Shown in pieces: positions 46,451 to 62,047 of a stretch of 64,000 bases of DNA. The translations under genes were made by a program, and so were the position numbers. The notes below the pieces were generated by a model. It was not told where the DNA came from. It worked only from the letters and a program-made list of their open reading frames with translations, and made no database searches. The stretch's first letter is position 1, and every line of letters starts with the position of its first letter. The stretch comes from Pseudomonadota bacterium (GTDB taxonomy: Bacteria; Myxococcota_A; UBA9042; CAIXZC01). The DNA lies in the NCBI GenBank assembly GCA_043815665.1, contig JBDRIT010000025.1, positions 145,490 to 209,489 of the forward strand, given 5' to 3'.

Positions 46451-47863
46451 GGTGCCGCAGCTCTTGAAGCAGATGGGATCGTAGCTGCACTCGCAGCCGG
46501 TGAAGTTCGGGACGCAGGTGGTGTCCAGGGTCGGGTCCTTCTCGTCCCCTGCGATGAACTTGGGGAAGGGGTTGTCATCGCCCAGGATCCACCCGAGGAG
46601 CTCCGGCGACGCGTAGTCGAAGAGCGTCATCCCCATGATCTCCCCGGCGACCCCCACGTAGGCCTCGACGCCCCACTCCAGGACCCACCAGGGCAGGGCC
46701 TTGTTCAGCAGGTCCTTGATGCCGGCCCGGAGCTGGATGTACACGTCGGCCTGCACGTAGGGGCCGGCCACGCCGAAGATCTTGGCCGCCAGCTTGAGCC
46801 CGGAGTAGACCTTGACCAGGGCCTCGATCCCGAACTCGGGCTCGGTGTAGTCGAAGGATCCGTCGAAGTTGGAGTAGGGGTTGAACCCGTCCCCGCTGTC
46901 CCCGTAGTCCCGGTAGTCGATGCCGACCTCGACGCTGATGCTCGACGTCACCGTGGTCTCGAGGGTGAAGAAGACGCCGACCTCCCAGGCGAGGAACAGC
47001 TCGAGGCTGATGTTCAGCGGGACCGGCCCGATCATGAGCGTTCCGAGGTTCAACGTGGCGAGGGTCTGGCTCCCCTCCATCTTCAAGACGGGCGCCTTGA
47101 TGAGGAAGTCGAGCTCACTCTCCGCCTCGACGAGGGTGCCGACCCGCAGGTGGTAGAGCTGCAGGAGGATGCCGATGTCGATGTCGAACTGGAGGGTCAT
47201 CCCGAAGTCGATGGTCCCGCCGACGGTGATCTGGTCCGTCGTCGTGGCCGAGTTGGCGTCCGCGTCGAAGATCACGATGGGCGGGAAGGTGATTGAGAAC
47301 AGGTCGCCGCCGAGCTCGCTGTACCCGGCGTACAGGGACAACACCGGGGAGCGCTTGACCTCCAGGCCGTCGATCTTGGTCTCGTAGTTGTCCATGTCCT
47401 CGTAGCGGGCGTTGCGCACCAGCTCGATGTGGAGCTCGTCGAAGGCCTCCTCGAGGGTCGCCGGCTCGGTCTCCACGCTGACGGTGCCGTCGGGGTTCAC
47501 GGTCTTGGACTTGACCTTGAACAGCCCGCCCTGGGGCGTCTTGGACGAGGGCCCGAACATCAGGACGTTCCCCTCCACCGCGTCGGCCACCAGGGGGGAG
47601 TCCGCGGCGAGGACCATGGCCCCCGCCGTCCCGGACACGGGGATCGAGAGGACCGTGGCCTCGACCTCATCGGGCAGCATCGTGCGGGTGGTCGCCGGCA
47701 GCTCGTACTCGACCTTCATCACCTCGTCGAGGCCCTTGGGCTTCTTCTTGAGCTGGACCGCTCCGTGCTCCTCGTCGGAGCACGCTGCGACGCCGAGGAG
47801 CAGGGCCAGACCAAGGATCCCGGAAAGCAGATGAATCGTGCGTCGCATGGTGTTCTCCATCAT
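42926..47863 (-). CDS. Giant Cys-rich repeat lipoprotein (1645 aa): ~470-aa N-terminal domain followed by a hierarchical array of C-P-x-D-C-G-x-C-C-G-N-G-x-C modules
   Basis: Lipobox ALLLGVAAC. One nucleotide separates it from the upstream OMP gene's stop. Six ~22-aa units, then five to six ~88-aa super-repeats, then four ~55-aa units. ~25% Cys. Confidence 0.8.
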   Translation of the reverse strand: MMENTMRRTIHLLSGILGLALLLGVAACSDEEHGAVQLKKKPKGLDEVMKVEYELPATTRTMLPDEVEATVLSIPVSGTAGAMVLAADSPLVADAVEGNVLMFGPSSKTPQGGLFKVKSKTVNPDGTVSVETEPATLEEAFDELHIELVRNARYEDMDNYETKIDGLEVKRSPVLSLYAGYSELGGDLFSITFPPIVIFDADANSATTTDQITVGGTIDFGMTLQFDIDIGILLQLYHLRVGTLVEAESELDFLIKAPVLKMEGSQTLATLNLGTLMIGPVPLNISLELFLAWEVGVFFTLETTVTSSISVEVGIDYRDYGDSGDGFNPYSNFDGSFDYTEPEFGIEALVKVYSGLKLAAKIFGVAGPYVQADVYIQLRAGIKDLLNKALPWWVLEWGVEAYVGVAGEIMGMTLFDYASPELLGWILGDDNPFPKFIAGDEKDPTLDTTCVPNFTGCECSYDPICFKSCGTCESTHFCQDRKCLPYCGDLFCDSAKGENALTCPADCGVHCGDGVCTPGELESCPQDCSTLCGNGKCDEASGESPCNCTEDCGHCCVNGECNGMENQVNCPEDCGLACGNYTCDLTEDCITCPQDCGPCCPNGVCAANENCGTCPQDCGICCGDGKCEPGKGESCSTCKQDCGDCCGDGQCKAAQGETCLTCVPDCGQCCGNGQCDNGEKCGTCPQDCGLCCGNQQCEANFNESSCSCEADCIDNPNTCSSCQCGTSGGSCSCAPDCGLTGNCCANICSSCGLCVVCGDGQCTGAESCKSCPADCGPCCGNGVCQPQQNETSCSCPADCPDDLDTCSPCQCGGSGDACKCGPSCVLTGDCCANACTACGSCPAVCGGGACAATEGCGTCPADCGSCCGNGICQAALGEDSCSCPTDCPDDLDSCSACQCGGNGGSCWCDDLCHVTNSCCADACDTCGACPPECGDGACEEGETCTSCPGDCGSCCGNGACEAKYQENSCSCPADCPDNPNSCSACQCGDTGGSCDCSPDCVQLGTCCANACGLCGACPAVCGNGSCEYGETCSGCPIDCGPCCGNGLCEVQHQEDSCSCLADCPDDPETCSACECGGTGGNCACDAACIATGTCCANDCQLCGNCAPACGDGQCNGDETCQACPQDCGDCCGNGLCEPGYGEDSCSCPVECPDDPLSCSPCNCGGSGGSCSCAPSCVATGNCCADSCDACGVCVPECGDGQCNGKENSCSCPADCPDDPSTCSLCECGGSGGTCGCGPDCVDAGNCCVNACLLCGVCPPTCGDGVCNGDETSCDCPLDCPDDPYACSPCECDGSGGVCDCSEACILAGTCCPDSCDTCGYCPPTCGEFGCEVDKGETLCSCAEDCGDPCAGIECDADPVCGFGCGTCAVDEYCDAGACLLLCGNGLCDPSETLCTCPLDCGDPCVDVECGVDPVCGVECPACPQYLTCDGGTCVTVCGNGQCQPGETKCNCPEDCGQPCANKTCGTEPVCGEFCGTCSNGYTCSGNNCYPICGNGQCQAGETKCTCPQDCGQPCAGRVCGNDPVCGVYCGVCPDQNKQYCGYDGKCYLACGNQNCESQFKETMCNCPQDCGYVYPGGKGCPGCCAPNFQNLTYQGWMTGCHYRHEQSNGYCGAKAGTCQDCGHSGTWYCWPGDPDGYGGYCGPAN

Positions 47864-48942: not shown

Positions 48943-51900
48943 TCACGTGACCCGGTCCCCCGATGGCGGGTGGCCGTACCAGGCAGAGTAGACCTGTGAG
49001 AAGTAGCTGGCGCTCATCCCCACCCTTGCGGCCACCTCTGCCGACGTGTCGAATTCCCCGGATCTCAGCATGGAGCGCGCCTCCTCCAGGCGCAGCTGGC
49101 GGACGAGCTGGACCGGCCCGAAGCCTGTGGCCTCCCGACACCGCCGCTGGAGCTGCCGGGGACTCAGGGCCATCTCCCGCGCCAGGGCCGGCACGGAGAA
49201 CTCAGGATCGGCCAGGTGGACCAGCACGATGGAGCGGAACTTCTCCCAGAAGACCCGGCCCGCCGGCGTCACCTTTATCCCCTCCGGTGACTCTGCCCCG
49301 GCCGCAGTCACAGCGGACGTGCCTGCAGCAACGTCGACCCCCGAACGAACGATCTGGTTGCGTACCCGCGAGAGGAGATCCTTGATCCCGAAGGGCTTCG
49401 CCAGGTAGTCATCGGCGACGGCCAGCCCCTCGGCGCTCGCACCGGGGCCGGACCGCGCCGAGATCAGCACGACCCGCACCTCCGCCAGCTGGGGATTCGA
49501 CCGGATCGCCGCCGCAAGCTCCAGGCCGTCCATCCGAGGCATCATGATATCCGACACCACCACCCGGGGCCGCTCCCTGCGAACGAACTCGAGGGCCTCC
49601 CGACCGTCCCTGGCCTGGGCCACCCGACCGAGGCCGGTGAGGTGTGAGGCGAGGTAGGACCGCATGTCCTCGTTGTCCTCCACCACCAGCACGAGGGGCT
49701 CGTCTTCGCCCCGGTCTTCCCCGTCACCCTGGATTTCAGCCGACGGGACAGCCCCACCCGAGGCCTCCGCCTCGAGCTGATCCAGGGTGAGGTGCTGCAC
49801 CCCCATGGGCAGGCGGACCAGGAAGCGGCACCCCGTCCCCTCGGCGTCATCGAATCCGATCTGCCCGCCGTGGAGCTCGACCAGCTCCCGGCAGAGGGAG
49901 AGCCCGATGCCCATTCCCTGGGGTCTCCATCCCTGTCTGGGCACCTGGCAGAAGCGCTCGAAGATCCGCTCCCTCGCGGCGACGGGGATTCCGGGCCCGG
50001 TGTTGAGGACGGTCAGCGTCACGTACGCTGTGCCCCACCCGTCCTCCTCCTGGCCGGGAGCCGGTCCATGGGTCGAGACCAGGACGCGTCCTCCCCGGGG
50101 GGTGTGCTGCAGGGCATTGGTCACGAGATTGGACAGCACCGTTTCCATGAGATCCGCGTCGAAGTACAGCGACAACTCCCCCGGTCCCGTGTCCGCAGCG
50201 AAGTCCAGGCCCCGGTCAGCCGCGTCGACCTCGAAGCGCTCGACGGTTCGCCGCACGAAGGCGGCGAAGTCCTGCCTGCGGGTTCTGAGCCTCATCGCGC
50301 TGCCGTCCAGGAGGGCGACCTTCACGAGCTGTCCGATCAGCTCGTGAAGGCGTGTCGCGTTTCTCCGGATCACGTCCAGGGTTCGAAGCTCCTCGCCGCC
50401 CGTGCCCCCCAGACAGGCCGCCAGATCCTCCAGGGGCCCCAACACCAGGGCGATGGGGGTCTTGAGCTCGTGGGACACGTTCGCGAGGAACCGGGTCTTC
50501 ATCCGGTCGGTCTCTTCCAGCCGCCGGGCCTGGTCTTCCAGGGTCCCTTCCCGTGCCTTCAGCAGGGCGGTTGCCTCCCTGACCTGGACCTCGAGCTCCC
50601 GCTTCCGACGGCGCAGCCGCCGCGTCCGCTGCCACGCCAGGGCGCCGACCAACACCAGGCCGGCGAAGACCAGCAACGCAATGAACATCCAGGTCTCGTT
50701 GAACGCGGGCCTGCGGTGGACGTCCAGCCGCACCGGCTCCCCCCAATCCAGGAGCCCGGCCTGGACCTCGAAGGTGTATCCACCCGGGGGCAGGTTCGTC
50801 CAGGAGGCGACGCGCCCGGCCCCGGGTGCGCTCCAGGCATCGTCGAAGCCCGCCAGCCGGTAGCGGAACCTCACGTCCTCGGGCCAGACCAGCTCCGGGC
50901 AGTGCCAGCGCACGGAGAAGCCCCTCTCCTCGGGCTCGAGGACGATCCGCTCCGGGATGTCGGACGGATCGACGGTCCGATCACCGTACGTGATGGTCTC
51001 GATGGCCGCCCGGGGAGGGGGCGGCGTCGGGAAGCTCTCCGGGCGCACGCCGGAGAGCCCCACCTGCGTCGGATACCAGAGGAGGCCGTCGGGGGATCCC
51101 GCCAGGGCGGGCTGCATGTATCCGTTGGCTTCGCCGGACGCCATGCCGTCACTCTGGTCCAGGGTCAGCGCGAGGACGTGGTCCCGGTCTGAGGAGAAGT
51201 ACGCCTCCAGCACCGCCCGCTCGAGGATCGAGATGCCCCGGTTGCTGCTCAACCAGATCCGTCCGAGCCGATCTTCGGCTACGGAGTGGATGGTGTCGTC
51301 GGGCAGGCCGGCCGCCCGGCTCACGCACACCCTGGGCCCCGCGGTCATCCCATCCTGCCCCAGACCCACCCTGCAGAGGCCGGAGTCGTCGGTGCCCAGC
51401 CAGGCAACACCGCCGCGGTCGACGGTGACGAAGCGGATGCCGACGCTCCCGAGGCCCGGGTCCGGGCTGAAGGACTCCCGCTCCCCCGACCGATACCGCA
51501 CGAGCCCGCGATCCCGGGTCGCGATCAGCACCGACCCGTCAGGGGCCTCGGCGAACATCCGCACGGTGTCGGAGCCCAGGTCACCGCCCCCCGCCACCCG
51601 CCTCGACGTCCAGGAGCCCCCCTGCTCCTCGATGTTCCAGAGACCGCCCGTGATGTTCGAGTACCAGATCTTCCCGGTCGCGTCCTGGTAGCCAGGCCCC
51701 CGCTGCCAGTTCATGTCACCGAGGGGCGGCAGGGGCACGCACCGGTCCCCGTCCACCTGGCAGATCCCGCCGTTCGAAGGAATCCACACGCGCCCGTCCC
51801 GCAGCAGGATGGGTGGATACGCCGTGATCTTCGCTCCCGCGTCGGGCACGCTGGTTCCGGTCACCGCGATGCGCGTGGCCCCTCCGGCCCCGATCCGCAC

Positions 51901-53085
51901 CACCCCGGCGTCTCCTTCAGAGACCCAGAAGTCGCCCGACCCGTCGATGGAGACGGCGCGGACGTTGCCATCCCCGAGGCCGTCAGAATGACCGAGGGAC
52001 AACACCGGTGACGGGCGGAGGCGCAGCAGTCCCTGTCCCTCCGCGGCCACCCACAGATGCCCCATGTCGTCGACGAAGAGCCGGTTGACCCGGTCGATCC
52101 CCCCGGCCAGGCGCACCCCGTCTCTCCAGATCGCCTGGTCCGAGTGCTCCCACAGATGCCCATCAGCAAAGAGCGCGGGGAGCCGCCGGCTGTTGATGGG
52201 GCCCGGCGGTGCAGTGGGCGCCACTGGAGGGACCAGCCGCCCGCCGGACACCCCCCACCAGCGGGTGGACGACCGGGCCAGGACCTCGCCCGAGGGGCCC
52301 TCCAGCACCTGCAGGAAGGGGTCGTCCTCCGCACCCCTCGGCCCGGGCAGCCGCACGACCTCGTCACCGTCCACCCGCAGCAGGCCGTGCGCGCTGGTGA
52401 TGTACACGGCGCCGTCGTCCATCACGAAGGGCCTTCCATGGGGTTCCCGGGCGTACAGCCCCAGGAGGGAAAGCCCCTGCGGCGCTCCCGTCACGGGCAG
52501 ATGATGGAGGATGTCGCTGTTTCCGTTGACCCACAGGTCCCCCGACCGCGTCCCGTCGAGGACCCGCAGCGGGCCGGGGCTGAGCCCCCGCCCGAGCACC
52601 TCCGGCGCGCCGTCGCCGAGCAGGTACACCTCGTCGTACAGGGCGAGCACCCTCCCGCGGCCCTTCCACAGCCAGAGGGTCCGCCCCTCCTGGGGCCGGG
52701 GAAGGCTCCAGGAGGAGAAGCCGTCCGCGGTCATGCGGATGAGCTTGCCGGTCTCGCCCGCGATCCACAGGGCGCCGTCGTCGCCGACCTCGAGGTTGTA
52801 CAAGCGGTTGGTCAGCAGCTCCGGGGTGTCCGCCCGGCGGTGGATCCGGACCTCGAGGCCGTCGAACCGCACCAGGCCGTCGAAGGTGGCCAGCCAGACG
52901 TTGCCGTCAGGCGTCTGGGCCACATCCTCCACGTGGGACAGGGGCAGGCCGTCGTCCAGGGTCCACCGATCGACCAGCCACCCCGATGCTGGAGATCGTG
53001 AGGTCGTCCTTGCTGCCGTCGGGAGCGCTGGGAAGAGCAAGGACAGGGCCATGGCGAAGAGCGCGATTCCCCACCGATGGCCCAT
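48943..53085 (-). CDS. Hybrid two-component system sensor/regulator: periplasmic Reg_prop beta-propeller + Y_Y_Y + TM + HisKA/HATPase + receiver + AraC-type HTH
   Basis: gcaaggagcaggATG. Signal peptide MGHRWGIALFAMALSLLFPALPTAA. SHELKTP H-box, GMGIGLSL G-box, REC (VVSDIMMPRMDG...LAKPF), C-terminal AraC HTH. Confidence 0.85.
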   Translation of the reverse strand: MGHRWGIALFAMALSLLFPALPTAARTTSRSPASGWLVDRWTLDDGLPLSHVEDVAQTPDGNVWLATFDGLVRFDGLEVRIHRRADTPELLTNRLYNLEVGDDGALWIAGETGKLIRMTADGFSSWSLPRPQEGRTLWLWKGRGRVLALYDEVYLLGDGAPEVLGRGLSPGPLRVLDGTRSGDLWVNGNSDILHHLPVTGAPQGLSLLGLYAREPHGRPFVMDDGAVYITSAHGLLRVDGDEVVRLPGPRGAEDDPFLQVLEGPSGEVLARSSTRWWGVSGGRLVPPVAPTAPPGPINSRRLPALFADGHLWEHSDQAIWRDGVRLAGGIDRVNRLFVDDMGHLWVAAEGQGLLRLRPSPVLSLGHSDGLGDGNVRAVSIDGSGDFWVSEGDAGVVRIGAGGATRIAVTGTSVPDAGAKITAYPPILLRDGRVWIPSNGGICQVDGDRCVPLPPLGDMNWQRGPGYQDATGKIWYSNITGGLWNIEEQGGSWTSRRVAGGGDLGSDTVRMFAEAPDGSVLIATRDRGLVRYRSGERESFSPDPGLGSVGIRFVTVDRGGVAWLGTDDSGLCRVGLGQDGMTAGPRVCVSRAAGLPDDTIHSVAEDRLGRIWLSSNRGISILERAVLEAYFSSDRDHVLALTLDQSDGMASGEANGYMQPALAGSPDGLLWYPTQVGLSGVRPESFPTPPPPRAAIETITYGDRTVDPSDIPERIVLEPEERGFSVRWHCPELVWPEDVRFRYRLAGFDDAWSAPGAGRVASWTNLPPGGYTFEVQAGLLDWGEPVRLDVHRRPAFNETWMFIALLVFAGLVLVGALAWQRTRRLRRRKRELEVQVREATALLKAREGTLEDQARRLEETDRMKTRFLANVSHELKTPIALVLGPLEDLAACLGGTGGEELRTLDVIRRNATRLHELIGQLVKVALLDGSAMRLRTRRQDFAAFVRRTVERFEVDAADRGLDFAADTGPGELSLYFDADLMETVLSNLVTNALQHTPRGGRVLVSTHGPAPGQEEDGWGTAYVTLTVLNTGPGIPVAARERIFERFCQVPRQGWRPQGMGIGLSLCRELVELHGGQIGFDDAEGTGCRFLVRLPMGVQHLTLDQLEAEASGGAVPSAEIQGDGEDRGEDEPLVLVVEDNEDMRSYLASHLTGLGRVAQARDGREALEFVRRERPRVVVSDIMMPRMDGLELAAAIRSNPQLAEVRVVLISARSGPGASAEGLAVADDYLAKPFGIKDLLSRVRNQIVRSGVDVAAGTSAVTAAGAESPEGIKVTPAGRVFWEKFRSIVLVHLADPEFSVPALAREMALSPRQLQRRCREATGFGPVQLVRQLRLEEARSMLRSGEFDTSAEVAARVGMSASYFSQVYSAWYGHPPSGDRVT

Positions 53086-53374
53086 CCTGCTCCTTGCGTG
53101 CATGTGTGTGGGCCAAAGTGCCCCATCCGATGTGGGGGTGGCCCTGCACTCCGCGGTTCCTCCGAATCATCCCATGCCCTCCGACAAATTCAAGCCCTAT
53201 CAACTCTTCCACTGGCACTCCCTCTTGCATGGCGCGCCGGAGGAGCGTATAGAATGCGCACGTCCATCCCGGACTGCGGCGAAGGAAAGACGCCACGACA
53301 CCCAGGCAACAACAGGCGACGGCAGCGCTCCGCATCGAAGCCTTCGAGCTCTCCTCCCTCGTGGATACCACCCC

Positions 53375-53830
53375 GTGAGCGTGGAGATCCAGCCCCTCCA
53401 TGATCTCGACTCGATCCGCCAGCTGATCCGCATCCACGACGCGGCCTGGAAGGGCTCCACGGGGATCCTGGACCTCCTGAGGAACTCCACCACCTGTCTG
53501 CTCGCTCGGGGTCCCCGGGGCCGCATCGTGGCGTACCTCTTCCTCGAGGAGGACCGGTCCCGGGGCTTCTTCGAGATCCAGGACGTGGTGGTGCACCGCC
53601 GCCACCGCCGCAAGGGCTACGGGCGCCTCATCGTGGAGGCGGCCATGGCCCGCTGCTGCGCGCTCAAGCTCCTGGCCAGCGCCAACAAGCCCGGCCTGCT
53701 GCATTTCTACAGCGGCCTCGGGTTCGAGGTAGAGCACCGCATCGAGAACTACTACGACGTGGGGGACGACGCGGTCCGCATGAGCTGGCGAGGTGCGTCG
53801 CCCTCCGGCGGAGGCGCGGCCAATCAGTAG
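53375..53830 (+). CDS. GNAT family N-acetyltransferase
   Basis: Acetyl-CoA-binding region VVVHRRHRRKGYGRLIV. GTG start. ~151 aa. Confidence 0.7.
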   Translation: MSVEIQPLHDLDSIRQLIRIHDAAWKGSTGILDLLRNSTTCLLARGPRGRIVAYLFLEEDRSRGFFEIQDVVVHRRHRRKGYGRLIVEAAMARCCALKLLASANKPGLLHFYSGLGFEVEHRIENYYDVGDDAVRMSWRGASPSGGGAANQ

Positions 53831-55467
53831 AGCGACGGGATGCGGCTGATCGACATGGCCTGATAGGAGTTCATCATCTCCCCGGGTGGCGCCTTCAGGG
53901 TCGCCCGGAGTACCTCCTCCGAGGGCGCCGTGGAGGTGACCTCCACGATGCGAACCGACAGGGTGTCGCCCGGATTCCCCGGATCCAGAGCCAGCGCGCC
54001 TTCGCAGATGAGGACGTTCCCGTTGTCCAGCTTGCGGACCTCTCCCATCATGCTCGTGACCGCAGGAGGTTCCACCAGGTGCTCCCAGGTCTGGGTGGCG
54101 ACCCAGGTGGCGGTGTCGACCTCGTACTCCACCGCGCGGGAGTACATGGAGTTGTCCCCGGGGGCGTTGTCAAACAGCAGGATCCGGTTCCCCGGGAGCG
54201 GCACGGCGCTGTGATGGAACATGGACCAGCGTCCACCGTGGGCCAGCATGAAGTCGCCCTCGACACCGAGGCGCCAGAGGAGCGCCCCGGTGTTGCGGTC
54301 GACCTTCACCACCCAGCTCTGGTTGGCCACGGACATGACGTAGTCGCCGGTGTCCGGATCCGTGGCGATCGAGTTGCTGTGGGACCAGTCCTTGGTCCCC
54401 CCCGGGGCTCCCGGGAAGTCCATGTCCCAGAAGCCGTCGTTGTAGTTCCCCAGCAGGCGGCGGGGATCCAGAAGATCGAGGAGCCTGATCTCCCGGATGA
54501 GGTCGCCGGAGGGATCGATCTCATAGAACACGTCACCGACGATGTTGTAGGTGAGGGTGCCGCCGCCCAGGCCGGGGAAGCCGCCGATGGTCCGCATCTC
54601 GACGCCGATGGCGAGGTAGTTTCCGTCGCCGGTGACGCCGGGCCAGTGGTGGAAGGCGGGGGTCCCGAAGTCCCCGGGCTCGAGGGAGCCCTGGGTGACG
54701 AGCCCGAGGAGATCCGAGATGATGATCGGCCCCCCGTGCTCGGTGTCCACGAGGTAGGTTCCCGAGTGCGTCGGCACATAGGAGGTGCCACCGCCCTGGT
54801 GATGGTAGAACGCGACCTCACCGGCCCCGTCCAGGGCCACGGTGTACTGGTACCTGTAGACCGGCCCGTCTTCGTACATCCCGGAGAACAACGTGTACCC
54901 GGGCTGCATCCTGTCGGCGTCGATGACCTCCACCTCGAGATCCCCGAGGAAGGCCGGCAGGGGGGGCGTCGTGACGTCGACGTGCCCGATCGCGGCCACA
55001 TCGGCGGCGCTGATCGCCTGTATGTGGATTCGATAGGCGGACTCCGCCCTGAGGTCCATGACCACCAGCTTGTGCACCGCCTTCAGCGCGTCTCCGTAGG
55101 GCACCGGCACGGACTTGCCCGTGGCCAGGTTCTCCAGGCCGACGACGAGCCGCGTCGGGAGGTCCGTGCGGACCTCGAGCCACAGGACCAACCCGATCCG
55201 ATCGCTGTCCTCCACGGTGATCTTCTGGATGATCGGCGCCTGGTCGCCGGGCAGGTGATCATGGGCGATGGTGTCGGTATGGACGGTGTCGGGGTCGACG
55301 GTGTCAGGGTCCAAGGAATCCGGTTCGAAGACGTCCGGAACGGCGACCTCCTCGGCGACGGCGTCCGGGCTGACGACATCGGGGACGTCGGATGATCGGG
55401 TGGAACCGCAGCCCATGGTCCAGGCAGCGAGCGCGAGGGCGATCCAGAGCACCGAGGTTCTGAACAT
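53824..55467 (-). CDS. Aryl-sulfotransferase (ASST)-like beta-propeller lipoprotein, paralogue 1
   Basis: Signal peptide/lipobox MFRTSVLWIALALAAWTMGC. DWSHSNSIATDPDTGDYVMSVANQSWVVKVDRNTGALLWRLG matches the ASST core pattern as I recall it. Confidence 0.6.
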   Translation of the reverse strand: MFRTSVLWIALALAAWTMGCGSTRSSDVPDVVSPDAVAEEVAVPDVFEPDSLDPDTVDPDTVHTDTIAHDHLPGDQAPIIQKITVEDSDRIGLVLWLEVRTDLPTRLVVGLENLATGKSVPVPYGDALKAVHKLVVMDLRAESAYRIHIQAISAADVAAIGHVDVTTPPLPAFLGDLEVEVIDADRMQPGYTLFSGMYEDGPVYRYQYTVALDGAGEVAFYHHQGGGTSYVPTHSGTYLVDTEHGGPIIISDLLGLVTQGSLEPGDFGTPAFHHWPGVTGDGNYLAIGVEMRTIGGFPGLGGGTLTYNIVGDVFYEIDPSGDLIREIRLLDLLDPRRLLGNYNDGFWDMDFPGAPGGTKDWSHSNSIATDPDTGDYVMSVANQSWVVKVDRNTGALLWRLGVEGDFMLAHGGRWSMFHHSAVPLPGNRILLFDNAPGDNSMYSRAVEYEVDTATWVATQTWEHLVEPPAVTSMMGEVRKLDNGNVLICEGALALDPGNPGDTLSVRIVEVTSTAPSEEVLRATLKAPPGEMMNSYQAMSISRIPSLY

Positions 55468-55630
55468 CAGAAGCTCCCCACCCCGTCAATCGAGCACGCT
55501 CCGGGAGCGGGCTGGCGATGAAACATCTTCGGCCCGTTCATCTCCCACAACGCGAGGGTATGGAGCGCCAAGCAGTTGTCAAGGGCCCCAATGGTGCAGA
55601 TTCCCGGGATGTCGAACCACGGCAGGTTCT

Positions 55631-57664
55631 CTACAGGCACTTCGCGGTCTGGGGGTCGCAGGTCTGGTCCTCGGGGCAGGTCCCGCAGTCGCAGGACTGG
55701 CCGAGGTAGAAGGCCCCGACGACGCCGCACTCGCGGTCCTCGCAGAAGGGGGCGCAGAGGGCGGCTTCGTCCATGCAGGCCCCGGCCTCGTCGCAGAGGA
55801 ACCCCTGGGGACAGGCGCCGCAATCGCAGGACAGGTCCAGCAGTCCGCAGACCCGATCCTGGGACGCGCAGGTCTCGTCGCAGTCCACGCACTGCCCCTC
55901 CAGACAGATCAAGCCCGGGAAGCAGATGCCGCAGATGCAACCACTGATCCAGCCGCACTCCGCGCCCGCGCAGACCTCCTCGCAGGAGGGCGGCGGCGGG
56001 GGCTCCCGGGGGTGCACCACCCAGCCAGGAGGATAGAGCCCCGTGAGCCGCTCCGCAGCGAAGGACGTGATCTTCTTCACCTTCGGGTCCAGAGGCCCCC
56101 CGATGTCCAGGCCGAAGACGCGCTCCCCGACGGGCTCCCTGCGGACGATCTCCAGCCGGATCCACAGCCGGTTGTCGGACCCGAAGGGCGACGCCTCGGG
56201 GTGCTCGACCAGGGAGCCGTGGAGGATCAGGACCATGTCGTCGGGCAGGACGTCCACGTCCGCGGGCCCCATGCAGTAAAACGGGACACCCCCGCCGTCC
56301 CAGGACCAGATCTCCTCGGCCTCCCAGGGGCCGCCGCCCTGGGGGGCGCTCATTGCGTACTCGACCACCCTGCTGCGCCGCTCGGCCTTGAAGACGCCGT
56401 CGTCGTAGAGCAGGACCCGCCCCTCGGCGCTCCACTCCGCGCCGTGGGGGACCGAGAACCACCCGCCCCCGTCGGCCAGCGCGACGTCCCCCCCCTCGCC
56501 CAGGGACCAGACCGGCTTGCCGGTCCCCCGGTCCAGCTTGACGATCATGTCCTGGTTCGCCAGGGAGACCACGTAGCTGTCGTCGTCGGGGTCGTACTGG
56601 ACCGCGTTGCCATGGGACCAGTCCTTGGCGCCCCCGGCTGCGTCGGGATAGAGGAGGAACCAGAAGGGGGTCAGGAACCCGGGGTTGTAGTGGTAGGGGT
56701 CGAGGACGTCCAGGAGGCTCCAGGCGCGGACCGGCAGGCCCTCCCGGGGCAGCTCTACCACGACGTCGCCCACCACGGAGTAGCCCGTGGTGGAGCCGTC
56801 CCCCCGCGTATAACCGTCGACCCACCGCAGCTCCGGGGCCAGGGAGAGGAGGCTGCCATCGGGGCCCGGCGCCACAGCGTGGTGCAGGCCGTCGAGGCCG
56901 AGGTCCGCCGGGCGCCACTCGTGGAGCACGTTGCCGAGCATGTCGATCTCGCGGATCCCGTCGGACTCCCCGAAGGCGACCACGAGGGTGCCCGCCGCGG
57001 TCCGCCGGGCCTCCACGAGGGTCTCCGTGGCCCGGTGGTACCACACCACCTCCCCCTCATCGTCCACGACCACCAGGATCCCCTGGTCCAGCACCCCGGA
57101 GCCCCAGAGGATCAGGTTGAGGAGCGTCATCCCCTGGGCCATGTCCTCCGGCGGGGACTCGAGGAGCGTGAACCGGGGGAAGTCATCGGGGAGGGGACCG
57201 GTGTCCCAGGTGAGGGATTCGTCCACCGTGGCGTTGGCCGCCCCGTCGACAACTTCCAACGTAAAGTGGTAGCTCCGGTCGGCCCGCAGCCTGAGAACCG
57301 GCACCAGATGCGTCGTGGCGGGTGCGAGGTCCGCGGTGAGATCCCAGCTCCGCCCGGTGCCGACCTCGTCCACGACGAGGGTCCAGGTCACCGGCTCGTC
57401 GGTGCCGAAGGTCAGGGCCACGGCCAGGGGGTTCCCGCCCACTGGGACCAAGGCGAGATCCAAGATGACCGGAGGATCGAGGTCCAGGGGCGCGGCGTCG
57501 GTCTCCGTGCTCGTCTCCGTATCTGCAGACACCTCCGAAGACGCGTCCGCAGGCACCTCGGCGTCCGCCGCGGAGCACGCGCCGGCGCAAGGCTCCGCAC
57601 CGCAACCCGGAAGGGCGATGATGATCATCAACAGCAGATTGCCCGACAGCCGGGACAAGAACAT
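55631..57664 (-). CDS. ASST-like beta-propeller lipoprotein, paralogue 2, with a ~120-aa Cys-rich C-terminal extension
   Basis: Lipobox IIALPGCG. DWSHGNAVQYDPDDDSYVVSLANQDMIVKLDRGTGKPVWSLG. C-terminus PPPPPSCEEVCAGAECGW...CDCGTCPEDQTCDPQTAKCL. Confidence 0.6.
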   Translation of the reverse strand: MFLSRLSGNLLLMIIIALPGCGAEPCAGACSAADAEVPADASSEVSADTETSTETDAAPLDLDPPVILDLALVPVGGNPLAVALTFGTDEPVTWTLVVDEVGTGRSWDLTADLAPATTHLVPVLRLRADRSYHFTLEVVDGAANATVDESLTWDTGPLPDDFPRFTLLESPPEDMAQGMTLLNLILWGSGVLDQGILVVVDDEGEVVWYHRATETLVEARRTAAGTLVVAFGESDGIREIDMLGNVLHEWRPADLGLDGLHHAVAPGPDGSLLSLAPELRWVDGYTRGDGSTTGYSVVGDVVVELPREGLPVRAWSLLDVLDPYHYNPGFLTPFWFLLYPDAAGGAKDWSHGNAVQYDPDDDSYVVSLANQDMIVKLDRGTGKPVWSLGEGGDVALADGGGWFSVPHGAEWSAEGRVLLYDDGVFKAERRSRVVEYAMSAPQGGGPWEAEEIWSWDGGGVPFYCMGPADVDVLPDDMVLILHGSLVEHPEASPFGSDNRLWIRLEIVRREPVGERVFGLDIGGPLDPKVKKITSFAAERLTGLYPPGWVVHPREPPPPPSCEEVCAGAECGWISGCICGICFPGLICLEGQCVDCDETCASQDRVCGLLDLSCDCGACPQGFLCDEAGACMDEAALCAPFCEDRECGVVGAFYLGQSCDCGTCPEDQTCDPQTAKCL

Positions 57665-57824
57665 ACGTCCACCTCGACGTCCACTCGTCGCGCAGGATAC
57701 AGAGTGACTGCGCCCCCCGCAACGGGCTGTTTCAATTCGTTTTGATTTGACCCACCGCTCCTGTTGTCAAGCACCTCCCGAAACCCTACTGTATAGCTCG
57801 CAAGCTGGGGGGGGAGGAGTTCCA

Positions 57825-59414
57825 ATGACCAGAATGTCCGTGCTCTGGATTGCATTTTTCTTCGTGGCCTCGGCCCACGGCTGCGGCCCGGACCGCCCCG
57901 CCGACTCCACTGATGTGGACGCTTCGATCCGGGCAGACCTCGGCCCGGAGGTCGGCGCGGCCGACAGTGATGGCCCGGAGTTGACAGGGTCGGACACGGT
58001 CACGGACACGGCCCCTGGCTCCGCACCGGTCTTCGAGGTCCTCACCGTGGCCCAGAGCGCCAAGATCGGCCTGGTCGCCTGGCTCAACATCGCCACGGAC
58101 GTCCCCACGCAGCTCACCGTGACCCTCGAGGATCTGGCCACAGGCCTCACCACCCCGATTCCCACCACCGGCGCCCTGGCAAAGAAACACGCGCCGGTGG
58201 TCATGGACCTGCGCGCGGAGAGGGCGTACCGGATCCACATCGACGCGTTCGACACGGACGGGATGACCGTGTCCGGCGCCCTGGACTTCGAGACGGCCCC
58301 CCTCCCCGCCTTCTTCGCCGGGCTCGACGTGAGCATCTCCGACGGGGAGAGGATGCAGCCCGGCTACACCCTGGTCTCCGCAAAGGACGACAGCGGCCTG
58401 GTCACCTTCGCGCTGAACGCGGCGCGGGAGGTCGTGTTCTACAACACCGTCTCCACCTCCTTCGTCGTCCCGACCCCCGCCGGCAACTACCTCGCCGCCA
58501 TGGAACACGGCGGCCCCATCTACACGTCGACGCTCCTGGGGAAGTCCGGGGCCACGATCGACCCCATGGCATACGGGACCCTGCTCTTCCACCACCTGCC
58601 GGGGATCAGCCCGGAAGGAAACTACCTCACCCTCGGCGTCGAACTGCGGAGCATCGAGGGCTATCCCGTCGAGGGCGGCGGCACCGCGACGTACCAGGTC
58701 GTCGGGGACATCTTCTACGAGCTGACCCCGGCGGGCGAGCTCGTCAACAAGGTGCAGCTCTTCGATGTCCTGGATCCGTACCGGGTCGGCTGGTGCTTCG
58801 ATTGCCCCTTCTGGGCCATGGACTTCCCCGGCCTCCCGGGCGGGCCCAAGGACTGGTCCCACTCCAACTCCCTCACCATCGATCCCGACGACGGGAACTA
58901 CGTCGCATCGGTGCTGAACCAGAACTGGGTGGTGAAGCTCCGCCGGGACACGGGCGCGCTCATCTGGCGCCTCGGCCCGGAGGGCGACTTCCAGCTCGCC
59001 CCCGGCGGGCGATGGTCTGGGAGGCACCACGGGGTGTCGCCGCAGCAGGGGGATCGGATCCTGCTCTACGACAACGATCCGGCCAGCCCACCCTTGTTCT
59101 CCCGCGCCGTGGAGTACTCCCTCGACACCGCCGACTGGGTCGCCACCCAGACCTGGGAGTACCAGGTGGACCCACCGGGAATGACGGACCCCCTCGGCGA
59201 AGTCCATCGCCTGGACAACGGGAACGTCCTGATCTGCGAGGCGGCCCTCTGGGAAGTCCTGGAGGACCAGGGCAGCCCCACCTGGGGCCGCGTCGTGGAG
59301 GTCACCTATCCGGCGCCGTCGGAGGAGGTGTTCCGCATGACCCTCAAGCGGCCGGACGGCGAGACGAACTTCTACGAGATCTTCTCGGCCCGCCGGATCC
59401 CGAGCCTGTACTAG
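57825..59414 (+). CDS. ASST-like beta-propeller lipoprotein, paralogue 3
   Basis: gggaggagttccaATG. MTRMSVLWIAFFFVASAHGC. DWSHSNSLTIDPDDGNYVASVLNQNWVVKLRRDTGALIWRLG. Ends ...RRIPSLY, as paralogue 1 does (ISRIPSLY). Confidence 0.6.
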   Translation: MTRMSVLWIAFFFVASAHGCGPDRPADSTDVDASIRADLGPEVGAADSDGPELTGSDTVTDTAPGSAPVFEVLTVAQSAKIGLVAWLNIATDVPTQLTVTLEDLATGLTTPIPTTGALAKKHAPVVMDLRAERAYRIHIDAFDTDGMTVSGALDFETAPLPAFFAGLDVSISDGERMQPGYTLVSAKDDSGLVTFALNAAREVVFYNTVSTSFVVPTPAGNYLAAMEHGGPIYTSTLLGKSGATIDPMAYGTLLFHHLPGISPEGNYLTLGVELRSIEGYPVEGGGTATYQVVGDIFYELTPAGELVNKVQLFDVLDPYRVGWCFDCPFWAMDFPGLPGGPKDWSHSNSLTIDPDDGNYVASVLNQNWVVKLRRDTGALIWRLGPEGDFQLAPGGRWSGRHHGVSPQQGDRILLYDNDPASPPLFSRAVEYSLDTADWVATQTWEYQVDPPGMTDPLGEVHRLDNGNVLICEAALWEVLEDQGSPTWGRVVEVTYPAPSEEVFRMTLKRPDGETNFYEIFSARRIPSLY

Positions 59415-59689: not shown

Positions 59690-62047
59690 TTATAGCGCGT
59701 CGAAGTCCGAGCAGAAGAGGTAGCCCCCCCCGTCCCGCCAACAGAAGCAGGTCAACCAGGTGTTGTAGAGCTCCTTGAGGAGATCGGGATCCGTGGAGAG
59801 GGCCACGTTCCCCGCGAACCGGAGGAGCTCACCCCCGGAGAAGGTCTGGTTGTCGTCGTGACAGATCCAGAACGCGTTGACCGGCTCCGACGGATCGGCC
59901 GCGGCCAGGGGACACACGCGGTAGTTGTTGTGGGAATCGTCGGAGCCCGGTTCGCCTGTCTGCTTGACCTCGACGTCCGCGATGGTGAACTTCACCACGC
60001 CGAGCTCCGAGTTCGCGGGCAGCAGGTGCTCCCCCGAGTCCTTGAGGTCCTTGAGCATGGTCTTCGGGAAGGTGACCCACACGGAGATGTACCGGAAGTG
60101 ACTGGAGGAGTAATACTCGAAGTTCCCCTCCTTGTGCACCTTGACATACTCCTGCCCGTAGAAGGAGCTGGCGGCCACGCTCAACGTGCCGTCGTCGAGG
60201 AAGAAGTCCTGGCCCCCCACGACGATGTGGAACTCCGCGTCAGAGACGCTGAGCCCTTCGATCCCCCCGATCTCGCCGATGACCTCCATCACCGCGTGGT
60301 CGTCCGCGAAGGGGGCGAGGAAGTCATCCGGCTGCCCGCAGTTGATCACCTCGGGCTCGTCCTCCCACAGCTCCTCGGTCTGCATGGTCTCGGCCAGGAA
60401 CTCCTCGTCCCCGGCGAAGTCCACCGGCAGGATGACGTCCACGCAGGACGTGTCCGGCGCGGCGCTCGGGTCCTTGAGCCAGGCCATCGCGATCTCGAAG
60501 CCGCAGTCGGTCTCGAAGGTCTCGTCCATGGGTGACTCGAACATGGCGCTGTCCCGCACCCCCGGCAGGACCACGAAGTGCTGGTGCGGCCCGGTGAGGC
60601 GCTCCTCCGCGTCCGCGACGCTGGCCAGGGGCGTCCTGTAGTTGAGGTCTCCGTGGAGGATCAGGATCGGCACCTCCGGCGGCGCCCACTTGCCATAGGC
60701 CTCGTCCAGCGGGTACCGGGGCCAGTACGCGAGCTGGACCGTGTTGAAGTAGCTCAGATACCGGGTGGAGATCAGGTCGGCCTCGTAGGCGAGGATCTCC
60801 TCGAGGGTCATCGCCCCCCCGGCGGGCTCGTAGACCATCTCCGAGAGCATCAGGAATCGGCCGATGATCGTTGACATCTCCTGGCGCCAATAGACCTCTT
60901 CGGCGGTGTAGAACGCGATGGCGTTGTAGATCGCGACCGCGTCCTCGTCGGTGCAGCGGTCGAGGCGGTAGAAGATCGCCGGGATCAAGGACCGCCCGTG
61001 CCAGTCGTACAGGCCGAGGTTGATGATGAACTGCTGGAGGGCCGAGGGGGTGACGTTCAAGCTCTGCAGCTTGTCGCAGATCAGCCCGTCCTTGTAGTCC
61101 TGGAAGACGTCGGCGGCGAAGCCCGCAGGATCCTCCCCCAACTTGGCCGAGCAGAGGTCGTCCTCCGCGCAGCGCTCGAAGATCGCCTTGGTGACCTCGT
61201 TCTCCTCCAGATCCTGGATGTCCACCTGGTAGCCCGCCGGCGGGACCAGGGAGTCCAGGACCACCGCGTCGGGCTGACGGGGGAAGAGGACCGCGTAGCG
61301 ATGGGCCCAGTAGGTGCCGTAGGACTGGCCGTAGACCAGCCGCGCCTTCCCGGGCTCGCTGACCAGGGACACCAGGAGGGCCACGTCCGCTGCGGCCGCC
61401 GAGACGGTGAAGCCGTCGAGGGGACCCCACTCCGCCTCGAGATACGCGGCACAGTCCTCCCACTCGCTGCCCTGGATCTTCCTCCCGCCGGGGCTGTCGG
61501 GGCTCCCCTGCTCGGGACAGGTCATCGCGTGGCTGAGGCCGGTGCCCCTGTGATCGAGGGCATACACGTCCATCTTGGGGTCCGCCTGAAAGACCCGCTC
61601 CATCTCCTGACTCAGGGTGTCGGTTCCGGGAAACCCCGGCCCGCCCTCGAGCATGAAGAGCTGCCGCTCCGAGCCCTCTTGCACCAGACGCTTCACGTGG
61701 ACCGTGAACACGTCGCTCTTCGGGTCCTCCCAGAAGAACGGGACCGTGATGTCCGCGCACTCCGCAACGCCGCTCTTGTTGCCGTCGTGGAGCGGGCAGG
61801 GCGCCCACGTCACCTCCTGCTCCAGGAACTCCTGGGGAAGGATGATGGGATCCGGCGGACCGTCCTCCGCGACATCGCCGACGACATCGACCACGGTGGT
61901 GTCTGCGTCCGGACCAGGGCCGGCGATGTCCTCGCCCCGAGGCAGGTCACCATTCTGTGACAGGATGGCGGGTCTCTCGCCGGGGGAGCAACTGCCGAGA
62001 GCCACCACAACGGCAAGGACCTGCAAACGCAGGGCGAAGGATGTCAT
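59690..62047 (-). CDS. Secreted alpha/beta-hydrolase lipoprotein of the S33 (tripeptidyl/prolyl aminopeptidase-like) family with a large C-terminal extension
   Basis: ctctgaggtgagccATG. Lipobox VVALGSCS. GGPGFPG...DHRGTGLS...GQSYGT nucleophile elbow. Confidence 0.7.
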   Translation of the reverse strand: MTSFALRLQVLAVVVALGSCSPGERPAILSQNGDLPRGEDIAGPGPDADTTVVDVVGDVAEDGPPDPIILPQEFLEQEVTWAPCPLHDGNKSGVAECADITVPFFWEDPKSDVFTVHVKRLVQEGSERQLFMLEGGPGFPGTDTLSQEMERVFQADPKMDVYALDHRGTGLSHAMTCPEQGSPDSPGGRKIQGSEWEDCAAYLEAEWGPLDGFTVSAAAADVALLVSLVSEPGKARLVYGQSYGTYWAHRYAVLFPRQPDAVVLDSLVPPAGYQVDIQDLEENEVTKAIFERCAEDDLCSAKLGEDPAGFAADVFQDYKDGLICDKLQSLNVTPSALQQFIINLGLYDWHGRSLIPAIFYRLDRCTDEDAVAIYNAIAFYTAEEVYWRQEMSTIIGRFLMLSEMVYEPAGGAMTLEEILAYEADLISTRYLSYFNTVQLAYWPRYPLDEAYGKWAPPEVPILILHGDLNYRTPLASVADAEERLTGPHQHFVVLPGVRDSAMFESPMDETFETDCGFEIAMAWLKDPSAAPDTSCVDVILPVDFAGDEEFLAETMQTEELWEDEPEVINCGQPDDFLAPFADDHAVMEVIGEIGGIEGLSVSDAEFHIVVGGQDFFLDDGTLSVAASSFYGQEYVKVHKEGNFEYYSSSHFRYISVWVTFPKTMLKDLKDSGEHLLPANSELGVVKFTIADVEVKQTGEPGSDDSHNNYRVCPLAAADPSEPVNAFWICHDDNQTFSGGELLRFAGNVALSTDPDLLKELYNTWLTCFCWRDGGGYLFCSDFDAL

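What the first reader, a model, noticed from the sequence alone, without database searches (positions are those of the whole stretch)
53824..59414. Cluster of three divergent ASST-like (aryl-sulfotransferase-like) beta-propeller lipoprotein paralogues, one with a Cys-rich tail
Three neighbouring genes (two on the minus strand, one divergent on the plus strand) share the core DWSH[SG]N[SA]...D[PD]D.G.YV.S..NQ...VK[VL][DR]R.TG...W.LG, with a 160-bp divergent promoter region between paralogues 2 and 3.
- Paralogues 1 and 3 end with the same ...RIPSLY C-terminus.
- Paralogue 2 instead carries a 120-aa Cys-rich extension (CxCGxC motifs).
- A GNAT acetyltransferase sits next to the cluster and an S33 hydrolase lies ~300 nt downstream of paralogue 3.
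ASST-family enzymes transfer sulfuryl groups between phenolic compounds. A triplicated, lipid-anchored set suggests diversified substrate handling at the cell surface (inference). The FGE-domain protein 12 kb away gives the region a loose sulfur-ester theme. That link is speculative.
Basis: partly seen in the sequence, partly recalled or inferred. Interest (0 to 1): 0.6.

Follow-up and report, generated by a model that had tools for sequence, protein, structure and literature searches.

The report
Three divergent ASST-like lipoprotein genes
Three neighbouring genes encode membrane-anchored relatives of bacterial aryl-sulfate sulfotransferase; they belong to a small Myxococcota-type branch that keeps the catalytic histidines, has lost one sulfate-binding arginine, and is always partnered with a cysteine-rich module, so the family call is sound but the exact chemistry is untested.

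Summary
Three ORFs (P1 53824-55467 minus; P2 55631-57664 minus; P3 57825-59414 plus) all match Pfam PF05935 far above its cut-off. AlphaFold models of P1 and P2 are confident, and the P1 model best matches E. coli ASST and Streptomyces Cpz4. NCBI already names P1 and P3 "aryl-sulfate sulfotransferase".

All three keep the equivalents of E. coli His252, His356, Asn358 and the sulfo-histidine His436. All three lack the sulfuryl-coordinating Arg374 (Ala, Ala, Leu). In a neighbour-joining tree they sit in one 22-member branch where 21 members lack this Arg; outside it 124 of 136 relatives keep it.

The "triplication" is better read as a conserved unlike pair (P2-type plus P1/P3-type, adjacent in 6 loci) with one extra P1/P3-type copy. 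The P2 tail is three 8-cysteine modules. This module is fused to, or encoded beside, P2-branch genes in 13 loci.

In two related Myxococcales genomes a P2-branch gene lies beside CysD, CysNC, a PAPS-type sulfotransferase and a KAS-III-like gene. That resembles the Cpz8-to-Cpz4 two-step sulfation.

The GNAT and S33-like neighbours are not conserved in relatives, and the FGE link has no support.

Verdict: a new variant of a known kind, of moderate interest.

The parts
53824..55467 (-). P1: ASST-like lipoprotein, 547 aa, P1/P3-type. Signal peptide with Cys20, an acidic disordered linker (about residues 21-75), an Ig-like beta-sandwich (about 80-166) and a beta-propeller. Ends in RIPSLY.
   Evidence: PF05935 at E 5.9e-35 and PF14269 at E 1.5e-13. 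AF2 model pLDDT 82.9. Foldseek top hit is E. coli ASST, E 4e-16. Identical to NCBI protein P0001, named 'aryl-sulfate sulfotransferase'.
55631..57664 (-). P2: ASST-like protein, 677 aa, P2-type. Signal peptide with Cys21, a linker, an Ig-like N-domain, a propeller and a C-terminal Cys-rich tail.
   Evidence: PF05935 at E 1.1e-33; weak PF17425 N-domain hit at E 1.5e-4. AF2 model pLDDT 85.7. Orthologues at 63-71% identity in L040 and L053.
55634..55996 (-). Cys-rich tail of P2: three tandem 8-Cys modules (C-x3-C-x4-CG-x(4-10)-C-x-CG-x-C-x5-C-x4-6-C), 24 Cys in all.
   Evidence: All 24 Cys are invariant in six homologous tails. The module is fused to the ASST gene in the window, L040, L042, L050, L053 and L054. 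It is a separate adjacent ORF or gene in L007, L009, L043, L046, L048, L052 and L059. No Pfam hit.
57825..59414 (+). P3: ASST-like lipoprotein, 529 aa, P1/P3-type, transcribed divergently from P2. The ORF also opens at an upstream TTG at 57747. Ends in RIPSLY.
   Evidence: PF05935 at E 1.2e-28. GGAGG lies 5 nt before the ATG at 57825. Identical to NCBI protein P0002.
57665..57824 (.). 160-bp divergent intergenic region between the P2 and P3 starts.
   Evidence: The consensus scan found no sigma-70-like site here.
55468..55630 (.). 163-bp spacer between the P2 stop and the P1 start. It contains a TTGACA hexamer. Whether P1 has its own promoter is open.
   Evidence: sequence. Not reported by the promoter scan.
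54325..54327 (-). P1 Ala381 (GCC): the position of E. coli ASST Arg374. The corresponding codons are P2 Ala369 (56558-56560) and P3 Leu364 (58914-58916).
   Evidence: Profile alignment to 3ELQ and 9KF6. 166-sequence alignment with no gaps between the DWSH and VK motifs. Codon map.
54211..54213 (-). P1 His419: equivalent of the E. coli sulfo-histidine His436. Corresponding residues are P2 His407 (56444-56446) and P3 His402 (59028-59030). The other retained active-site equivalents are P1 H274/H363/N365, P2 H262/H351/N353 and P3 H257/H346/N348.
   Evidence: The His is present in 166 of 166 aligned relatives.

Best explanation
**What they are.** The three genes encode extracytoplasmic, probably lipid-anchored enzymes of the PAPS-independent aryl-sulfate sulfotransferase (ASST) fold. 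Each has an Ig-like beta-sandwich plus a six-bladed propeller, held on a long acidic tether.

**Likely mechanism.** They most likely work by the ASST ping-pong mechanism. A small sulfated donor sulfurylates the conserved histidine (P1 His419, P2 His407, P3 His402). Two further His and an Asn assist. The group is then passed to a hydroxyl acceptor outside the cytoplasm.

**Which branch.** They belong to a distinct Myxococcota-type branch in which the sulfuryl-coordinating Arg374 is replaced by a small or hydrophobic residue. Donor or acceptor binding, and possibly the group transferred, therefore probably differ from E. coli AssT and Cpz4.

**Functional unit.** The unit appears to be an unlike pair. 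A P2-type enzyme always comes with a 3 x 8-Cys disulfide module (fused here). A P1/P3-type enzyme accompanies it, and this genome has a second P1/P3-type copy.

**Shown:** family, fold, retained and lost residues, the recurrent pairing, and the module fusion/fission.

**Inferred:** sulfuryl transfer itself, lipidation, the location, and any physical association of the pair.
For: **Family and fold**
- PF05935 well above its cut-off for all three.
- The profile hits Cpz4 9KF6 at E 8e-70 and E. coli AssT 3ELQ at E 9e-27.
- AF2 models are confident (pLDDT 82.9 and 85.7).
- The P1 model's top ten Foldseek hits are all ASST or Cpz4 entries, with a large gap to the next hit.

**Active site**
- Equivalents of His252, His356, Asn358 and His436 are near-invariant in 166 relatives and present in all three.
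- In the model's strand register, residue 381 pairs beside His363 and Asn365. This matches Arg374 lying in the E. coli active site (secondary structure; PMC13426309).

**Arg-less branch**
- In the NJ tree, 21 of 22 members lack Arg, against 124 of 136 outside that keep it.

**Recurrent pairing**
- P2-type lies next to P1/P3-type in the window, L040, L042, L043, L050 and L053, in differing gene orientations.
- The Cys-rich module is fused or adjacent in 13 loci.

**Sulfur context**
- L009 and L046 place an Arg-less P2-branch gene directly after CysD and CysN/C. A PAPS-type sulfotransferase and a KAS-III-like gene sit beside them.
- This parallels the Cpz8-to-Cpz4 sulfate relay (PMC4257720).
- L050 has a PF00884 sulfatase 5 kb away. 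L045 has a TauE-family gene next to three tandem copies.
Against: - Loss of Arg374 is untested biochemically and could abolish or change activity. A review states the sulfuryl-binding residues are highly conserved in all known ASTs.
- The aligned position of Thr501 is Met, Pro or Leu.
- The window itself holds no PAPS, sulfotransferase, sulfatase or Dsb genes.
- The PAPS-cluster association is seen only in two related species (about 77% nt identity). It involves a more distant P2-branch member (about 36% identity to P2).
- Lipoboxes are atypical at positions -3 and -2 (TMGC, LPGC, AHGC), and no predictor was available.
- No natural substrate is known even for E. coli AssT.
Confidence: 0.55

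Rival explanations
1. They are ordinary aryl-sulfate sulfotransferases like E. coli AssT. On this view they are periplasmic enzymes shuffling sulfate between small environmental phenols for detoxification or scavenging. The triplication would simply broaden phenol specificity.
For: Strong PF05935 hits. Best structural match is E. coli ASST. The His triad and Asn are retained. NCBI names them so. Multi-copy ASST clusters are common in relatives: L003 and L008 have three copies, and L013, L015, L019 and L022 have two.
Against: All three and their whole branch lack Arg374. The essential AssT disulfide and the DsbL/DsbI partners are absent; mature P1 has a single Cys. The obligatory Cys-rich partner module and the conserved unlike pairing have no counterpart in characterised ASTs.
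Confidence: 0.2
2. They are the outer, PAPS-independent end of a two-step sulfate relay. A cytoplasmic PAPS-dependent sulfotransferase would load a small carrier made by a KAS-III-like enzyme. The carrier would be exported, and the lipid-anchored ASST-like pair would sulfate a cell-surface or secreted molecule, as in the Cpz6/Cpz8/Cpz4 system.
For: L009 and L046/L047 carry Sulfotransfer_1/3, a KAS-III-like gene, CysD and CysN/C. A Cys-rich lipoprotein and an Arg-less ASST gene follow directly. Protein identities between the two loci are 55-90%. The Cpz relay is described in PMC4257720. The tethered extracytoplasmic location fits a site where PAPS is unavailable.
Against: None of these partner genes is in the 64-kb window. 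The association is seen in one lineage only, so shared ancestry could explain the synteny. The KAS-III-like gene hits FabH-type models, not type III PKS models. This reading is a special case of the best explanation rather than a true alternative.
Confidence: 0.15
3. They have changed chemistry or lost catalysis. The Arg-less branch would use the His triad for a different group transfer or hydrolysis (for example acting as a sulfatase or phosphotransferase). Alternatively it acts as a non-catalytic binding propeller at the cell surface, with the Cys-rich module as an adhesion or scaffold domain.
For: Arg374 is replaced by Ala, Leu, Ser or His throughout the branch. Further branch-specific changes surround the catalytic His and the Thr501 region. 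Extracytoplasmic tethering and a disulfide-rich module are typical of surface binding proteins.
Against: His274, His363, Asn365, His419 and Asp433 remain invariant across a branch that is only about 30% identical overall. That argues for retained catalysis of the same general type. The sulfur-metabolism neighbours in L009, L046, L050 and L045 point to sulfate.
Confidence: 0.1

Closest known systems
E. coli CFT073 aryl-sulfate sulfotransferase AssT (PDB 3ELQ, 3ETS, 3ETT, 4P04-07)
   Same: Two-domain architecture of an N-terminal beta-sandwich plus a six-bladed propeller (Foldseek E 4e-16, TM 0.58). Extracytoplasmic location. Equivalents of His252, His356, Asn358 and the sulfo-histidine His436.
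   Different: About 16% identity. Arg374 is replaced by Ala, Ala and Leu. The Thr501 position is not conserved. There is no essential disulfide and no DsbL/DsbI operon. The proteins appear to be lipoproteins on an acidic tether rather than soluble periplasmic proteins. They also have a Cys-rich partner module and an unlike paralogue pair.
Streptomyces Cpz4 (PDB 9KF4, 9KF6), the ASST-type enzyme of caprazamycin two-step sulfation
   Same: Closest solved sequence relative to the family profile (E 8e-70; Foldseek E 2e-13). Cpz4 takes sulfate from a carrier loaded by a PAPS-dependent enzyme (PMC4257720). Two relatives of P2 sit in an analogous gene cluster.
   Different: Cpz4 keeps the Arg (SgRN). 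The profile matches only its propeller region, from about position 138. It is not a lipoprotein and has no Cys-rich module. No biosynthetic cluster surrounds the window genes.
Arg-containing ASST-like lipoproteins of Myxococcota and other phyla (for example P0008, P0009, L002-L023)
   Same: Same length, signal peptide with Cys, the FHH / DWSH.N / H / DN motifs, and an RxPxLY-type C-terminal motif. 30-37% identity. They are often in multi-copy clusters.
   Different: They retain the S-x-R-H-Q motif. No Cys-rich module was seen next to them in the loci examined.

Membership tests
ASST superfamily (Pfam PF05935 / PF14269) | Match to the family HMM above the curated cut-off | tested here: met
   PF05935 scores 121.4, 117.2 and 100.6 bits against a cut-off of 24.2. 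PF14269 is above its cut-off for P1 and P3.
ASST superfamily (Pfam PF05935 / PF14269) | Fold: N-terminal beta-sandwich plus six-bladed beta-propeller, as in 3ELQ | tested here: met
   AF2 models have pLDDT 82.9 and 85.7. For the P1 model, Foldseek ranks 1-8 are E. coli ASST (E about 1e-15) and ranks 9-10 are Cpz4. The next hit is at E 9e-7.
Aryl-sulfate sulfotransferase, the enzyme class typified by E. coli AssT | Catalytic sulfo-histidine (His436) | tested here: met
   P1 His419, P2 His407 and P3 His402. The His is present in 166 of 166 aligned relatives.
Aryl-sulfate sulfotransferase, the enzyme class typified by E. coli AssT | Auxiliary His252, His356 and Asn358 | tested here: met
   P1 H274/H363/N365, P2 H262/H351/N353 and P3 H257/H346/N348.
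Aryl-sulfate sulfotransferase, the enzyme class typified by E. coli AssT | Sulfuryl-coordinating Arg374 | tested here: not met
   Ala381, Ala369 and Leu364 at that position. The flanking alignment between DWSH and VK has no gaps. 130 of 166 relatives, E. coli AssT and Cpz4 all have Arg. Its role is listed in PMC13426309.
Aryl-sulfate sulfotransferase, the enzyme class typified by E. coli AssT | Thr501 in the active site | tested here: inconclusive
   The aligned position is Met, Pro or Leu in P1, P2 and P3. The alignment in this loop is less certain than elsewhere.
Aryl-sulfate sulfotransferase, the enzyme class typified by E. coli AssT | PAPS-independent sulfuryl transfer from aryl sulfates (pNPS, MUS) to phenols | not testable with these tools
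   Needs an enzyme assay.
Aryl-sulfate sulfotransferase, the enzyme class typified by E. coli AssT | Essential disulfide and a dedicated DsbL/DsbI or DsbA partner gene (Enterobacterial ASTs only) | tested here: not met
   Mature P1 has one Cys. There is no Dsb gene in the window. This is not a family-wide requirement.
Bacterial lipoproteins (SPase II substrates) | N-terminal positive and hydrophobic region followed by a lipobox ending in Cys | tested here: inconclusive
   A G-C follows the hydrophobic region at Cys20, Cys21 and Cys20, and this is conserved in relatives. Positions -3 and -2 are atypical (TM, LP, AH), and no predictor was available.
Two-step (Cpz-type) sulfation system | ASST-type enzyme clustered with a PAPS-dependent sulfotransferase, a carrier-forming ketosynthase and PAPS synthesis genes | tested here: not met
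   Absent from the 64-kb window. Present beside P2-branch relatives in L009 and L046/L047.

The most novel reading that the evidence does not exclude
The Arg374-less ASST-like pair and its 8-Cys partner module could be the extracytoplasmic end of a sulfate relay found in Myxococcota. In this reading, PAPS-derived sulfate is carried out of the cell on a small KAS-III-made carrier. The tethered enzymes then transfer it to surface or secreted molecules through a remodelled active site. That would be a general way for bacteria to sulfate things outside the cytoplasm.
Probability: 0.2. Interest if true: 0.65.

Novelty: new variant of a known kind. Interest (0 to 1): 0.4.

Why it matters
ASST-family enzymes are valued as cofactor-free sulfation catalysts. 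Their natural roles are nevertheless almost unknown, and only two family members have solved structures.

The branch described here has three unusual features:
- It is naturally missing one sulfuryl-binding residue.
- It is always coupled to a disulfide-rich module.
- It occurs as an unlike pair.

In two relatives it is wired to PAPS synthesis. Together these give a concrete, testable lead to a physiological function (extracytoplasmic sulfation) and to enzymes with different donor or acceptor scope.

If the enzymes prove to be plain phenol sulfotransferases, the finding is routine annotation.

Tried and rejected
- **NCBIfam:** no hit for any of the three.
- **Word-index protein search with the Cys-rich tail:** found nothing.
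- **BLASTP of the tail against the two Dicty_CTDC proteins in the window:** only one weak unit match (E 0.003). The tail is therefore not a Dicty_CTDC repeat.
- **Window genome in the gene-position index:** not on record, so flanks beyond 64 kb could not be read.
- **Literature:** the Malojcic 2008 paper is not held. No paper links ASST with Myxococcota, and none mentions 9KF4 or 9KF6.
- **Promoter and terminator scan:** nothing in the two intergenic spacers.
- **Neighbour conservation:** GNAT, the alpha/beta hydrolase, the hybrid kinase sensor, the MetA-like channel and the 1645-aa protein give no hits beside relatives. They were rejected as functional partners.
- **A compensating basic residue:** Arg428 is enriched in the branch but, by strand register, lies at the far end of the hairpin from His419. 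Lys359 is enriched (89% against 40%), but E. coli also has Arg at that position. Nothing convincing was found.
- **The FGE "sulfur theme":** rejected, because there is no sulfatase in the window.

Full report
**1. What is there**

The region holds three real genes. Third-position GC is 0.90-0.93.

| Gene | Coordinates | Strand | Length |
|---|---|---|---|
| P1 | 53824-55467 | minus | 547 aa |
| P2 | 55631-57664 | minus | 677 aa |
| P3 | 57825-59414 | plus | 529 aa |

- The P3 ORF opens at a TTG at 57747. The ATG at 57825 is preceded by GGAGG and reproduces the public protein exactly.
- P2 and P3 diverge from a 160-bp spacer. P1 follows P2 after 163 bp.
- Pairwise identities are 52.7% (P1-P3), 29.6% (P1-P2, E 1e-43) and 31.9% (P2-P3, E 1e-60).
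- The window is part of a 235,696-bp NCBI MAG contig labelled "Pseudomonadota bacterium". P1 and P3 are already named "aryl-sulfate sulfotransferase" there.
- Relatives found in species-representative genomes are mostly Myxococcota: Myxococcales, Polyangiaceae, Nannocystaceae and Bradymonadales/Persicimonas.

**2. Family and fold**

- All three match Pfam PF05935 at 100-121 bits (cut-off 24.2). P1 and P3 also match PF14269. P2 weakly matches the ASST N-terminal Ig-like domain. NCBIfam has no model for them.
- A profile of the family hits the two solved relatives: Streptomyces Cpz4 (9KF4/9KF6, E 8e-70) and E. coli AssT (3ELQ, E 9e-27).
- The AlphaFold models are confident (P1 pLDDT 82.9, P2 85.7). 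Each shows a disordered acidic linker after the signal peptide, a beta-sandwich and a propeller.
- Foldseek with the P1 model returns E. coli ASST entries at ranks 1-8 and Cpz4 at ranks 9-10. A nine-order gap in E-value separates these from unrelated propellers.
- The family is very large: 15,254 cluster representatives at E <= 1e-3 and 2,040 at E <= 1e-30.

**3. Active site**

A 2026 review lists the E. coli active site as His436 (transiently sulfurylated) with His252, His356, Asn358, Arg374 and Thr501. It states that these residues are highly conserved in all known ASTs (PMC13426309).

| E. coli residue | P1 | P2 | P3 |
|---|---|---|---|
| His252 | H274 | H262 | H257 |
| His356 | H363 | H351 | H346 |
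| Asn358 | N365 | N353 | N348 |
| Arg374 | Ala381 | Ala369 | Leu364 |
| His436 | H419 | H407 | H402 |

- The four retained positions are essentially invariant in a 166-sequence alignment.
- The Arg374 column lies in an ungapped stretch between the DWSH.N and VVK motifs. E. coli reads S-S-R-H-Q and Cpz4 reads S-G-R-N. P1, P2 and P3 read S-V-A-N-Q, S-L-A-N-Q and S-V-L-N-Q.
- In the model's strand register, residue 381 pairs next to His363 and Asn365, as expected for an active-site position.
- Among the 150 best relatives plus the window proteins, 130 have Arg and 36 do not.
- In a neighbour-joining tree P1, P2 and P3 fall in one 22-leaf branch. There, 21 members lack Arg (Ala, Leu, Ser or His). 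Outside the branch, 124 of 136 keep it.
- The branch also differs around the catalytic His and in the loop that carries Thr501 in E. coli.
- No convincing compensating basic residue was found.
One listed sulfuryl-binding residue is nevertheless missing in all three and in their whole branch.

**4. Not a simple triplication**

The Arg-less branch splits into a P2-type lineage and a P1/P3-type lineage. A P2-type gene lies next to a P1/P3-type gene in six separate contexts, with different orientations:

| Locus | Arrangement |
|---|---|
| Window | divergent P2/P3, plus P1 downstream of P2 |
| L040 | tandem; its 672-aa gene is 63% identical to P2 including the tail |
| L042 | convergent |
| L043/L044 (a Myxococcota JABWCM01 bin) | divergent |
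| L050/L051 | tandem |
| L053 | convergent |

- P3 is closer to P0003, P0007 and L001 than to P1, so the P1/P3 split is also old.
- Retained adjacency despite rearrangement suggests the two types work together. Whether they form a heteromer, as E. coli AssT forms a homodimer, is inference.

**5. The Cys-rich tail**

- Residues 557-677 of P2 are three tandem modules of eight cysteines each.
- All 24 cysteines are invariant across six homologous tails, and the third module (CGVVGAFYLGQSCDCGTC) is nearly identical in all of them.
- AlphaFold places the tail with pLDDT 77-92.
- It has no Pfam match and is not a Dicty_CTDC repeat.
- The module is fused to the ASST domain in the window, L040, L042, L050, L053 and L054.
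- It is a separate downstream ORF in L043.
- It is a separate upstream lipoprotein gene, often overlapping the ASST start, in L007, L009, L046/47, L048/49, L052 and L059.
- This fusion/fission pattern across 13 loci is good evidence that the module is a physical partner of P2-branch enzymes. Its role (binding, scaffolding or anchoring) is unknown.

**6. Context**

- Inside the window nothing supports a sulfur pathway. There is no sulfatase, PAPS-synthesis, PAPS-type sulfotransferase or Dsb gene.
- The FGE domain 12 kb away is fused to Dicty_CTDC repeats. The GNAT domain occupies only the last quarter of an over-long ORF. The "S33" hydrolase scores below every Pfam cut-off.
- None of these neighbours recurs beside relatives.
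- Elsewhere there are sulfur links. In L009 (an uncultured Myxococcales bin) and L046/L047 (metagenome contigs), the Cys-rich lipoprotein and an Arg-less P2-branch gene directly follow CysD and CysN/C. A Sulfotransfer_1/3 gene and a KAS-III-like gene lie immediately upstream.
- This mirrors the caprazamycin scheme. There, PAPS-dependent Cpz8 sulfates a small pyrone, and the ASST-type Cpz4 uses that as its donor (PMC4257720).
- The two loci are only about 77% identical in DNA, so they count as one lineage. The arrangement was not seen in any other locus.
- L050 has a PF00884 sulfatase 5 kb from its pair.
- L045 has a TauE-family transporter gene, three tandem Arg-less copies and a B12 radical-SAM gene.

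**7. Interpretation**

- Most likely, these are tethered extracytoplasmic group-transfer enzymes that use the ASST histidine ping-pong chemistry on a sulfated donor. Their binding site is altered, and they act as a P2-type/P1-P3-type pair with a disulfide-rich accessory module (confidence about 0.55).
- Rivals: ordinary phenol sulfotransferases (0.2); the terminal step of a PAPS-fed sulfate relay, which is a sharper version of the main reading (0.15); changed chemistry or loss of catalysis (0.1).
- Membership of the ASST fold superfamily is secure. Membership of the enzyme class "aryl-sulfate sulfotransferase" is not established, because one listed active-site feature was tested and not met.

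**8. Novelty and score**

- The gene family and its annotation are already public, and multi-copy ASST clusters are common in relatives. The headline of the finding is therefore ordinary.
- Three things appear to be undescribed; no paper was found linking ASST to Myxococcota:
  - the coherent Arg374-less branch;
  - its obligatory Cys-rich partner;
  - the conserved unlike pair.
- I rate it a new variant of a known kind, interest 0.4.

Noticed in passing
window 48943-53103 (-): A 1386-aa hybrid two-component regulator with Reg_prop propeller repeats, Y_Y_Y, HisKA, HATPase, receiver and an AraC HTH. This is the architecture of Bacteroides glycan-sensing HTCS regulators, seen here in a Myxococcota-like MAG. 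Its sensor part is not found beside ASST relatives.
   Followed up: partly
window 35366-41577 (-) and 42926-47863 (-): Two large secreted proteins built from Dicty_CTDC Cys-rich repeats. One ends in an FGE-sulfatase domain and the other carries a TSP1 domain. Next to them is a 1645-aa ORF with no Pfam hit, flanked by OmpA-family and Phenol_MetA_deg-like outer-membrane genes. The window contains no sulfatase for the FGE domain to act on.
   Followed up: partly
window 52511-53830 (+): The 'GNAT' ORF is over-long. The acetyltransferase domain is only aa 316-424. The first ~590 nt overlap the kinase gene on the other strand, and its stop overlaps the stop of P1 (53824-53830). The true gene is probably about 150-220 aa.
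   Followed up: partly
window 59690-62047 (-): A 785-aa probable lipoprotein. All alpha/beta-hydrolase and S33 Pfam hits are below their cut-offs, yet GGPG and GQSYG motifs are present. It has a long C-terminal extension of unknown nature.
   Followed up: no
L009 1703-9689; L046 3705-11707: A conserved block: glutaredoxin, PAPS-type sulfotransferase, KAS-III-like ketosynthase, CysD, CysN/C, Cys-rich lipoprotein, Arg-less ASST-like gene, then a 755-885-aa protein with no Pfam hit. It looks like a self-contained sulfation cluster.
   Followed up: partly
L045 4761-14026; L040 894-6002: L045 carries a TauE-family transporter gene, three tandem Arg-less ASST-like genes and a B12-binding radical-SAM gene. 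L040 carries a radical-SAM gene directly after its ASST pair. A possible recurring radical-SAM neighbour was not examined.
   Followed up: no
window 483-2351 (+): An asparaginase-family protein with a GatD N-terminal domain. This is the architecture of archaeal Glu-tRNA(Gln) amidotransferase subunit D, which is unusual in a bacterium.
   Followed up: no
L052 7063-9891 (P0017): A 942-aa ASST-like protein that matched the family profile in three stretches, with a long Gly/Asp-rich insertion inside the DWSH...SLANQ segment. It may be a fused or internally expanded form.
   Followed up: no
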